Shown here in pieces: positions 14,680-24,585 of a stretch of 64,000 nt of DNA (positions within the stretch are counted from its first letter, which is position 1; each line of letters starts with the position of its first letter). Made by a program: the position numbers and the translations under genes. This DNA is from Escherichia coli (GTDB lineage Bacteria > Pseudomonadota > Gammaproteobacteria > Enterobacterales > Enterobacteriaceae): NCBI RefSeq assembly GCF_003334385.1, contig NZ_QOWN01000003.1; one strand, given 5' to 3'. The notes under the pieces are model-generated. The model saw only the letters and a program-made list of their open reading frames with translations, did not search any database and was not told the DNA's origin.

Positions 14680-15486
14680 TTAGCGGCGGAAGGTCGCCCA
14701 GACGGGGGCGTGATCGGACGGTTTTTCCATGCTGCGGATTTCATAGTCGATGCCGGTTTCTACGCAACATTCTGCCAGCGGTTGGCTGGCGAGCAGCAGG
14801 TCGATGCGCAGACCACGGTTATCGTCAAAACCTTTTGAGCGGTAATCAAACCATGAGAAACGATCTGCTGTTTGCGGATTCGCATGGCGGAAGGTATCGA
14901 CCAACCCCCAGCTCATCAGCCTGTCCATCCATTCGCGCTCTTCCGGCAGGAAAGAGCATTTACCGGTACGCAGCCAGCGCTTACGGTTTTCTTCGCCAAT
15001 GCCGATATCCAGATCTGTAGGGCTGATATTCATATCGCCCATAATCAGTACCGGATTATCACGTTTGAGTTCGGTTTCCAGGTAGTTTTGCAGATTCTGA
15101 TAAAACTGCGCTTTTGCCGGGAATTTTATCGGATGGTCGCGGCTTTCACCCTGCGGGAAGTAACCGTTGATCACGGTGACATTACCCAGCAGTGAGGGGA
15201 TTTCCGCCATAATAATCCGCCGCTGCGCCTCTTCGTCGTCACCGGGAAAGCCGCGACGCACGGCAATCGGCGTCTCTTTGGTCAGCAGCGCCACGCCATA
15301 ATGGCCTTTCTGCCCGTGATAAAACACGTTGTAGCCGAGCTTCGCCACCTCTTCGAGCGGAAACATATCGTCATGAACTTTTGTCTCCTGCAGGCCAATC
15401 ACATCCGGTTGGTGCTTTTCGACGATGGCTTCAAGCTGGTGAGGTCTGGCGCGCAGGCCGTTGATATTAAAAGAGACAAATTTCAT
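14680..15486 (-). CDS. xthA: Exodeoxyribonuclease III (AP endonuclease VI)
   Basis: ORF 14680..15498; [36 protein letters not shown]… matches the ExoIII/APE1 family. Confidence 0.96.
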
Positions 15487-15714
15487 AGTCGCTGCCATTT
15501 ATTCAGATAAAGAGTGCGTGGATGGTAGCAGAATTTCGCGTTGCTTACCGCCTGTTGTTAAGTGATTTGATCGATGGTTGTTAATGATGTCAACGATGGC
15601 GCAAAAAATGCCCGCTTTTGGTGCGCGCTGCGTCAGAATGGCGCAGTAATTTCCAGTAAATTTCGTCAATGATCACAATTCCAGAATTATATTTTACTTC
15701 TGCATAACATTGCG

Positions 15715-15800
15715 TTTTTTATTCTTTTTATTCACCCACATCGCAAACGTATTCACTTTATATGCACTTTAAATGCATATGGTTTGGTTATAACTCCTTG
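15715..15800 (+). promoter_or_regulatory. AT-rich upstream activator region of astC with ARG-box-like palindromes (ArgR/NtrC region)
   Basis: tttattctttttattcac and tgcactttaaatgcatat resemble ARG-box half-sites; the ast operon is known to be ArgR/NtrC/sigma54/sigmaS controlled. Exact site boundaries not verified. Confidence 0.4.
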
Positions 15801-15844
15801 ATTTCCAGTTAGCCTCCGCCGTTTATGCACTTTTATCACTGGCT

Positions 15845-15860
15845 GGCACGAACCCTGCAA
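15845..15860 (+). promoter_or_regulatory. sigma54 (-24/-12) promoter of the ast operon
   Basis: TGGCACgaaccCTGCA matches TGGCAC-N5-TTGCA, ~70 nt upstream of the astC ATG. Confidence 0.8.
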
Positions 15861-15895
15861 TCTACATTTACAGCGCAAACATTACTTATTATTAA

Positions 15896-21959
<6,064 letters not shown>

Positions 21960-24489: not shown

Positions 24490-24585
24490 GACGTGCTACG
24501 CCTGTCAGGCCTATTCGACTCCTGCAATGTATTGAATTTGCATAGTTTTATAGGTCGAATAAGGCGTTCACGCCGCATCCGGCGT
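24490..24585. repeat. REP/BIME-type palindromic repeat between nadE and cho
   Basis: ctacgcctgtcaggcc … tgcaatgtattgaatttgca … ggcgttcacgccgcatccggcg: two REP-like palindromes flanking an AT-rich core. Confidence 0.75.

What the first reader, a model, noticed from the sequence alone, without database searches (positions are those of the whole stretch)
15845..15860. sigma54 promoter for the arginine succinyltransferase (ast) operon
TGGCACgaaccCTGCA is a near-consensus -24/-12 element upstream of astC, with AT-rich ARG-box-like palindromes further upstream. The divergent 430-bp xthA-astC region therefore integrates nitrogen (NtrC), arginine (ArgR) and stationary-phase inputs.
Basis: partly seen in the sequence, partly recalled or inferred. 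Interest (0 to 1): 0.3.

Follow-up and report, generated by a model that had tools for sequence, protein, structure and literature searches.

The report
Known sigma-54 promoter of astCADBE

Summary
The window is E. coli chromosome. The motif TGGCACgaaccCTGCA is real. It lies at 15844-15859 (+), one base left of the stated coordinates, and ends 72 nt before the astC start codon.

A weight matrix built from 41 other ChIP-seq sigma-54 sites ranks it as the best hit in all 64 kb, at 17.9 bits. About 0.23 such hits are expected by chance.

All 80 orthologous astC upstream regions, from many enterobacterial genera, keep CTGGCA[C/T]G-N5-TGCA at the same distance. GG and GC never change, while the spacer varies.

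Two NtrC-like sites sit at -253 and -233. ARG-box-like sequences and a CRP-like block lie between them and the promoter. All of these are conserved in position.

The exact 17-mer is published as sigma-54 ChIP-seq site OS17, marked "experimentally confirmed" (Bonocora 2015). NtrC ChIP-seq, gSELEX, sigma-factor ChIP-chip and Salmonella ChIP-chip agree. Several papers cite Kiupakis & Reitzer 2002 for RpoN/NtrC/ArgR/RpoS/CRP control.

The one published genome-wide TSS, at window 15875, fits an overlapping sigma-S-type -10 (TCTACATT) rather than sigma-54. This matches the known second promoter.

Verdict: observation confirmed, interpretation supported, already known, low interest.

The parts
15843..15859 (+). 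Sigma-54 core promoter astCp2: CTGGCACGAACCCTGCA. The -24 GG is at 15845-15846 and the -12 GC at 15857-15858.
   Evidence: Sequence. Top PWM hit of the window at 17.9 bits. Identical to ChIP-seq site OS17. Conserved in 80/80 orthologs with a variable spacer.
15870..15870 (+). Inferred sigma-54 transcription start (+1), 12 nt after the C of the -12 GC and 62 nt before the astC ATG.
   Evidence: Inference from the -24/-12 geometry. It matches Bonocora's predicted TSS-to-gene distance of 62. It was not confirmed by a condition-specific TSS here.
15861..15868 (+). Overlapping sigma-S/sigma-70-type extended -10, TCTACATT, with C at -13. It lies in the invariant block AATCTACATTTACAG (15859-15873).
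   Evidence: The block is >=95% conserved in 80 species. It sits 7 nt upstream of the mapped TSS at 15875. Assignment to sigma-S is an inference, supported by rpoS-dependent expression and the literature.
15875..15875 (+). Published TSS-seq start of the astCADBE transcription unit (U00096.2 coordinate 1830063, minus strand, 8 reads).
   Evidence: Cho 2014 supplementary Table S6. The coordinate mapping was verified through the astC ATG and through site OA03.
15609..15625 (.). NtrC-like enhancer site 1, TGCCCGCTTTTGGTGCG, centred at -253.
   Evidence: 4 mismatches of 14 to TGCACCA-N3-TGGTGCA. Only 27 such sites occur in 64 kb, yet two are adjacent here. The position is conserved at -253/-254 in most orthologs, where the match is often better, e.g. 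TGCACCATTCTGGCGCA.
15629..15645 (.). NtrC-like enhancer site 2, TGCGTCAGAATGGCGCA, centred at -233.
   Evidence: 3 mismatches of 14. The position is conserved at -233/-234 in many orthologs.
15657..15697 (.). Highly conserved block TAAATTTCG-N5-GATCACAATTCCAGAATTATATTT. It contains a CRP-like site (TTCGT-N6-TCACA, 15662-15677, centre about -200) and an ARG-box-like sequence at 15681-15698.
   Evidence: Conservation. ARG-box match with 4 mismatches. CRP is named among ast regulators. The CRP assignment is an inference.
15699..15716 (.). ARG-box-like sequence TCTGCATAACATTGCGTT, centre about -163. It is closer to consensus in other genera, e.g. TGTGAATAATATTCCTGG.
15751..15789 (.). Pair of ARG-box-like sequences 3 bp apart. 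ATTCACTTTATATGCACT (15751-15768, centre -111) is the best match. AAATGCATATGGTTTGGT (15772-15789) has only its left half conserved (TGCAT/TGAAT).
   Evidence: 3 mismatches of 16. Present at the same position in 74/80 orthologs. ArgR binding itself comes from the literature, not from a test here.
15823..15836 (.). Conserved TTTATGCAyTTTT block immediately upstream of the -24 element. Its function is unassigned; an ARG-box half-site or an upstream promoter contact are possibilities.
   Evidence: Conservation only.
15932..21959 (+). astCADBE operon: astC 15932-17152, astA 17149-18183, astD 18180-19658, astB 19655-20998, astE 20991-21959.
   Evidence: ORFs. RefSeq annotation of a locus that is 100% identical over the 461-bp query 15480-15940.
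14680..15486 (-). xthA (exodeoxyribonuclease III), the divergent neighbour.
   Evidence: Divergent xthA is present in 72/80 orthologous loci, and 69 of those 72 have a 390-448 nt spacer.

Best explanation
This is astCp2, the sigma-54 (RpoN)-dependent promoter of the E. coli arginine succinyltransferase operon astCADBE. RNA polymerase carrying sigma-54 binds the -24 GG / -12 GC element at 15843-15859 as a closed complex (binding shown in published data). Under nitrogen limitation, phosphorylated NtrC assembles on the two enhancer sites about 233 and 253 bp upstream and contacts the polymerase by DNA looping, so that transcription opens near 15870 (inferred). The intervening DNA carries ARG-box-like sites for arginine-bound ArgR, which acts as an accessory architectural activator ("superinduction", from the literature), and a CRP-like site. 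A sigma-S-type -10 (TCTACATT, 15861-15868) overlaps the downstream edge of the sigma-54 element. It gives rpoS-dependent stationary-phase transcription starting near 15875.
For: The window is E. coli: the spacer is >=95% identical in 5420 of the 5425 complete genomes that match. The 58-bp core is in the >=99% identity band (exact over the aligned stretch) in 4928 of 5425. The PWM score is the top of the window. The exact 17-mer appears in sigma-54 ChIP-seq Table 1 as OS17, flagged EcoCyc-confirmed. It is listed as a known sigma-54 promoter, with expression 2.1-fold lower in an rpoN mutant. RpoN and NtrC gSELEX peaks fall in the astC/xthA spacer. An NtrC ChIP-seq peak with 23-fold enrichment is seen in N-starved cells, and that paper's table cites earlier work for direct binding. 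ChIP-chip detected sigma-70, sigma-S, sigma-54 and sigma-28 at the region. Salmonella ChIP-chip found the orthologous site. In 80/80 orthologs GG and GC are invariant at a fixed distance while the spacer varies. NtrC-like sites are conserved at -253/-233 and an ARG-box-like site at -111 in 74/80. rpoS dependence shows in expression data. [quoted passage not shown]
Against: The only nucleotide-resolution TSS I could retrieve (15875, 8 reads, pooled from four conditions, strongest site per 10 bp kept) is 17 nt from the -12 C. That does not fit sigma-54 initiation. The primary paper with primer extension and footprints (Kiupakis & Reitzer 2002) could not be read here. The exact sigma-54 +1 and the NtrC/ArgR footprint boundaries are therefore my inference from sequence and conservation. 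The E. coli NtrC and ARG-box matches are individually weak, at 3-5 mismatches each. The promoter is reported to be weak despite its good core match.
Confidence: 0.95

Rival explanations
1. The motif is a sigma-54 binding site that never fires. Bonocora et al. call all their ChIP sites "binding sites" because they do not know which are functional promoters. On this reading all ast transcription comes from the overlapping sigma-S/sigma-70-type promoter.
For: The mapped TSS (15875) fits the -10 TACATT, not the sigma-54 geometry. ast expression depends strongly on rpoS in stationary phase. astCp2 is among the weakest sigma-54 promoters in reporter assays.
Against: The site is flagged experimentally confirmed. 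Expression falls in an rpoN mutant. NtrC is enriched at the locus in N-starved cells. Reporter constructs with astCp2 respond to NtrC. GG/GC are invariant in 80/80 orthologs and the enhancer sites keep their position. A dead site would not be maintained like this.
Confidence: 0.03
2. The match is a chance occurrence of a short degenerate consensus in an intergenic region.
For: Loose consensus matches (up to 2 mismatches) are no more frequent in the window than in shuffles: 36 against 45 expected. A PWM score of 17.9 or more arises about 0.23 times per shuffled 64 kb.
Against: It is the single best site in the window and sits at the right place and strand for astC. It is invariant across genera whose flanking DNA is only about 45-75% identical. 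It is bound in vivo.
Confidence: 0.01
3. The promoter is sigma-54-dependent but is driven by an enhancer-binding protein other than NtrC.
For: The E. coli upstream sites are imperfect NtrC matches at 3-4 mismatches. I could not read the footprinting paper.
Against: NtrC ChIP-seq and gSELEX peaks fall at the locus. Orthologs carry near-consensus NtrC sites at the same positions, e.g. TGCACCACGCTGGCGCA with 1 mismatch. The operon is listed in the NtrC regulon.
Confidence: 0.02

Closest known systems
astCp2 of E. coli K-12 (Kiupakis & Reitzer 2002; ChIP-seq site OS17 of Bonocora et al. 2015)
   Same: It is the same locus and the same 17-mer, CTGGCACGAACCCTGCA. The distance to astC is the same (predicted TSS 62 nt upstream of the ATG). 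The divergent neighbour xthA is the same.
   Different: Nothing differs. The window is the same chromosomal region of an E. coli strain, in reverse orientation relative to MG1655 coordinates.
glnAp2 and glnHp2, the model NtrC/sigma-54 promoters
   Same: All have a -24/-12 core, tandem upstream NtrC sites, and activation by looping. glnHp2 resembles astCp2 in being weak and in using an architectural protein between enhancer and promoter.
   Different: The enhancer here is much further away. It lies at -233/-253, against about -110/-140 at glnAp2 (the glnAp2 figures are from my own knowledge, not checked here). The helper protein is arginine-responsive ArgR rather than IHF. A sigma-S-type -10 overlaps the core.
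Salmonella Typhimurium astC (STM1303) sigma-54 promoter
   Same: It is an orthologous site, TGGCACGAATGCTGCAAT, bound by sigma-54 in ChIP-chip. ArgR activation has been reported (Lu & Abdelal 1999, cited).
   Different: Only the spacer bases differ: GAATG in LT2, GAACG in the S. arizonae locus L044, and GAACC here.

Membership tests
Sigma-54 (RpoN) -24/-12 promoter | GG and GC dinucleotides exactly one helical turn apart within TGGCAC-N5-TTGCA | tested here: met
   TGGCAC-GAACC-CTGCA at 15844-15859, with 1 mismatch. PWM score 17.9 bits, the top of the window.
Sigma-54 (RpoN) -24/-12 promoter | Occupied by sigma-54 holoenzyme in vivo or in vitro | tested here: met
   Looked up, not measured. 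The identical sequence is ChIP-seq site OS17. There is a gSELEX RpoN peak, an N call in sigma-factor ChIP-chip, and a Salmonella ChIP-chip hit.
Sigma-54 (RpoN) -24/-12 promoter | Upstream enhancer sites for a bacterial enhancer-binding protein | tested here: met
   Two adjacent NtrC-like sites at 15609-15645, conserved at -253/-233 in orthologs. An NtrC ChIP-seq peak is present.
Sigma-54 (RpoN) -24/-12 promoter | Transcript starts about 12 nt downstream of the GC, and this start depends on rpoN | tested here: inconclusive
   The only retrievable TSS is 15875, 17 nt from the C. It comes from pooled conditions with one site kept per 10 bp. The primer-extension paper is not held. Expression is 2.1-fold lower in an rpoN mutant.
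   80/80 loci keep CTGGCA[CT]G-N5-TGCA 71-76 nt before the ATG (one locus has ATGG rather than CTGG at the 5' end), while positions -19..-15 vary.
ArgR operator (ARG boxes) | 18-bp imperfect palindromes wnTGAATwwwwATTCAnw, typically two boxes 3 bp apart | tested here: inconclusive
   The best box is 15751-15768 (3 mismatches). A partner 3 bp away has only its left half good. Further boxes at 15681-15716 have 4-5 mismatches. Conservation in position is strong: 74/80 at -111. ArgR binding is known only from the cited literature.
Sigma-S-dependent promoter | -10 element with C at -13 (TCTAtacT-like), rpoS-dependent expression, and a TSS about 7 nt downstream | tested here: met
   TCTACATT at 15861-15868 lies in an invariant block. 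The TSS is at 15875. b1744-b1748 are strongly reduced in an rpoS mutant. Which sigma factor uses this -10 was not tested directly.

The most novel reading that the evidence does not exclude
The 15-nt block right after the -12 element (AATCTACATTTACAG) is nearly invariant in 80 species. It may be constrained by two polymerases at once, so that the sigma-54 closed complex parked at -24/-12 physically occludes the overlapping sigma-S -10. On this reading sigma-54 occupancy would act as a brake on stationary-phase ast expression unless NtrC fires it. The rigidly fixed -253/-233 enhancer distance would reflect a phase-locked ArgR-wrapped loop. This would be a sigma-factor competition switch built into one core promoter. 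Overlap of the two promoters may already be described in the 2002 paper, which I could not read.
Probability: 0.25. Interest if true: 0.3.

Novelty: already known. Interest (0 to 1): 0.07.

Why it matters
This finding adds nothing new. The promoter, its sigma factor, its activator NtrC, its ArgR co-activation and its RpoS input were all published between 1998 and 2015, and the site appears in genome-wide sigma-54 maps. Its practical value is as a positive control. A tool-less reader identified a real sigma-54 promoter from sequence alone. A simple PWM built from ChIP-seq sites then recovered it as the top hit of the window, along with at least five other ChIP-verified sigma-54 sites. The cross-genus comparison made here (GG/GC invariant, enhancer spacing fixed, overlapping -10 block invariant) is a tidy phylogenetic footprint of a known architecture.

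Tried and rejected
1. Kiupakis & Reitzer 2002 could not be read by PubMed id or by PMC135064; it is not held. Footprint and primer-extension coordinates are therefore not quoted.

2. A text search for astCp/astCp1/astCp2 returned mostly plant TCP-gene papers.

3. The ArgR ChIP-exo paper (PMC4381063) does not mention astC in its main text, so I did not pursue it.

4. The simple sigma-70 consensus scan found no -35/-10 pair near astC. This is consistent with a sigma-S-type promoter lacking a good -35, but gives no positive support.

5. Rfam found no RNA family in the xthA-astC spacer or in the astC leader.

6. The loose consensus search (up to 2 mismatches) is uninformative, with fewer hits than shuffles. 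The PWM was needed.

7. An ungapped alignment anchored on the promoter blurs upstream of about -125, because of 1-nt indels. MAFFT and per-locus site scans were used instead.

8. I considered whether the second sigma-54-like motif at 15596-15612 is a tandem promoter. I rejected this as the main reading. In orthologs the motif is simply GGTGCA-N5-TGCACC, that is, juxtaposed NtrC half-sites that mimic -24/-12.

Full report
**Identity of the window.** The 461-bp stretch 15480-15940 matches 5425 of 5426 complete E. coli genomes, and 5420 of these are at least 95% identical. It is annotated as the spacer between xthA and astC. A RefSeq locus that is 100% identical over that 461-bp query gives the gene order. 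xthA lies at window 14680-15486 on the minus strand. It is followed on the plus strand by astC (15932-17152), astA, astD, astB and astE (to 21959), then spy. The spacer is 445 bp, not 430 bp.

**The observation.** TGGCACGAACCCTGCA is on the + strand at 15844-15859, one base left of the coordinates given.
- It has a single mismatch to TGGCAC-N5-TTGCW.
- A loose consensus search is not informative: 36 matches at up to 2 mismatches against 45 expected.
- I therefore built a weight matrix from the 41 other intergenic-sense sigma-54 ChIP-seq sites of Bonocora et al. 2015 (PMC4591121), leaving astC out.
- The 17-mer CTGGCACGAACCCTGCA (15843-15859) scores 17.9 bits. This is the best hit on either strand of the 64-kb window and above the training median of 15.7.
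- About 0.23 hits that good are expected per shuffled window.
- The next PWM hits are also real sites. Those in nlpC, ihfA, gdhA, ynjE and ynjF are all listed as sigma-54 ChIP-seq peaks.

**Published evidence for this exact sequence.**
- Bonocora Table 1 lists OS17, CTGGCACGAACCCTGCA, motif centre 1830087 (U00096.2), minus strand, gene astC. The predicted TSS is 62 nt from the gene, and the EcoCyc status is "C", meaning experimentally confirmed.
- This gives the mapping window p = 15851 + (1830087 - x). The mapping reproduces the astC ATG at 15932 and places site OA03 at 31548-31564, as observed.
- Zhao et al. 2010 list the motif among known sigma-54 promoters at -88..-71 from the ATG, with expression 2.1-fold lower in an rpoN mutant.
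- Shimada et al. 2021 found RpoN and NtrC gSELEX peaks in the astC/xthA spacer.
- Brown et al. 2014 found a 23-fold NtrC ChIP-seq peak at astCADBE in N-starved cells, and their table cites Kiupakis & Reitzer 2002 for direct binding.
- Cho et al. 2014 detected sigma-70, sigma-S, sigma-54 and sigma-28 binding at the region.
- In Salmonella LT2 the orthologous TGGCACGAATGCTGCAAT is bound by sigma-54.
[quoted passage not shown] They name the promoter astCp2 and describe it as weak.

A protein-seeded scan of one genome per species returned 80 astC loci at 80-98% protein identity. They come from Escherichia, Citrobacter, Salmonella, Enterobacter, Klebsiella, Raoultella, Kosakonia, Buttiauxella, Cedecea, Trabulsiella, Pluralibacter and others.
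- All 80 have astA downstream. 72 have divergent xthA upstream, and 69 of those have a 390-448 nt spacer.
- In 79 of the 80, the best PWM hit in the 500 nt upstream is CTGGCA[C/T]G-N5-TGCA, ending 71-76 nt before the ATG (one locus has ATGG at the 5' end). The 80th, L033, has the same motif at the same place but a higher-scoring hit elsewhere.
- GG and GC never change, while positions -19 to -15 vary freely. This is the expected signature of a -24/-12 element.
- Overall ungapped identity of the 330 nt around the promoter falls to 44-74% in other genera.
- Within E. coli, the 58-bp core is in the >=99% identity band (exact over the aligned stretch) in 4928 of 5425 genomes.

**Upstream anatomy.**
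- Two adjacent NtrC-like sites are TGCCCGCTTTTGGTGCG (15609-15625) and TGCGTCAGAATGGCGCA (15629-15645). They are centred at -253 and -233 from the inferred +1 at 15870.
- Only 27 sites of that quality occur in 64 kb.
- Most orthologs have NtrC-like sites at exactly -253/-254 and/or -233/-234, often closer to consensus.
- Between enhancer and promoter lie ARG-box-like sequences. The best is ATTCACTTTATATGCACT (15751-15768, centre -111), present in 74/80 orthologs. A partner lies 3 bp away, and further boxes lie around -163 and -181.
- A strongly conserved block at 15657-15697 includes a CRP-like TTCGT-N6-TCACA.
- The ArgR and CRP assignments are inferences from sequence plus the cited literature. 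I could not read the footprinting paper.

**Transcription start.**
- The -24/-12 geometry predicts +1 at about 15870.
- The only nucleotide-level datum I could retrieve is TSS 1830063(-) in Cho et al. Table S6, equal to window 15875, with 8 reads.
- It was pooled from exponential, stationary, heat-shock and glutamine conditions, keeping only the strongest site per 10 bp.
- That position is 17 nt from the -12 C, which is wrong for sigma-54. It is 7 nt downstream of TACATT within TCTACATT (15861-15868), a sigma-S-type -10 with C at -13.
- That -10 lies in the block AATCTACATTTACAG, which is nearly invariant in all 80 species.
- Together with about 12-fold lower astC signal in an rpoS mutant in stationary phase, this fits the known second, sigma-S-dependent promoter. 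It does not refute astCp2.
- A simple sigma-70 scan finds no -35/-10 pair there. Rfam finds no RNA family in the spacer.

**Mechanism.**
- Shown by published binding data: sigma-54 holoenzyme occupies 15843-15859, and NtrC is enriched at the locus under nitrogen starvation.
- Inferred from sequence and conservation: NtrC-P assembles at -253/-233 and loops to the closed complex. Arginine-bound ArgR on the intervening ARG boxes shapes the loop. CRP binds near -200. Sigma-S polymerase uses the overlapping -10 in stationary phase.

**Verdict.** The feature is already known, and interest is low. The only mildly open idea is whether the overlapping sigma-54 and sigma-S elements compete. The primary literature may already address that.

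Noticed in passing
window 15596-15612 (+): A second, weak sigma-54-like motif ATGGCGCAAAAAATGCC (PWM 10.6 bits) lies inside the NtrC enhancer. It coincides with a low-stringency sigma-54 ChIP-seq peak (1830314, FAT 3) listed for astC in Bonocora S2. In orthologs it reads GGTGCA-N5-TGCACC, i.e. juxtaposed NtrC half-sites that mimic -24/-12. It may mark a third NtrC half-site or a looping cross-link rather than a promoter.
   Followed up: partly
window 15882 (-), also 15558 (-) and 15515 (-): Cho 2014 TSS-seq lists an xthA-directed start at 1830056(+), equal to window 15882 on the minus strand, with 58 reads. That is more reads than the astC start has. It begins inside the astC leader, about 396 nt upstream of the xthA ATG. 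Such a transcript would run antisense across the whole ast control region. Two proximal xthA starts are also listed.
   Followed up: no
window 4443-4459 (-), 6803-6819 (+), 7717-7733 (-), 31548-31564 (+), 52416-52432 (-), 55445-55461 (+): Six further published sigma-54 ChIP-seq sites fall in this window: inside gdhA, ynjF, ynjE (IS23), nlpC and ihfA (antisense), plus intergenic-antisense site OA03 (31548-31564), for which Bonocora lists cedA as the nearest downstream gene. Five of them rank among the top 12 hits of my PWM. OA03 (GCGGCGTGAACCTTGCA) is not in the top 20.
   Followed up: partly
window 3930-3946 (+): CTGGCATATCTGCTGCT is the second-best sigma-54 PWM hit of the window (15.1 bits). 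A text search for it found nothing in the Bonocora supplementary files, which include the low-stringency list, and it is not in the main-text high-stringency tables. By the annotation offset it lies inside ynjI.
   Followed up: no
window 15893-15919 (+): The 62-nt astC leader contains conserved AT-rich motifs (TTAACAT at about +24, TTATTTAC just before the Shine-Dalgarno GAGG). These score as weak ARG-box-like sequences in many orthologs. Their function is unknown.
   Followed up: no
window 15790-15836: There are conserved short blocks between the ARG boxes and the -24 element: GTAAC...TTG around 15793-15803 and TTTATGCAyTTTT at 15823-15836. No factor is assigned. TATGCA recurs three times in the region, at about -108, -95 and -43.
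   Followed up: no
window 48638-48762 (+), 52603-52761 (+), 24507-24549 (-), 31653-31695 (-): Rfam gathering-threshold hits elsewhere in the window: the Phe leader (pheM), the sRNA STnc540, and two copies of ES036/CssrF.
   Followed up: no
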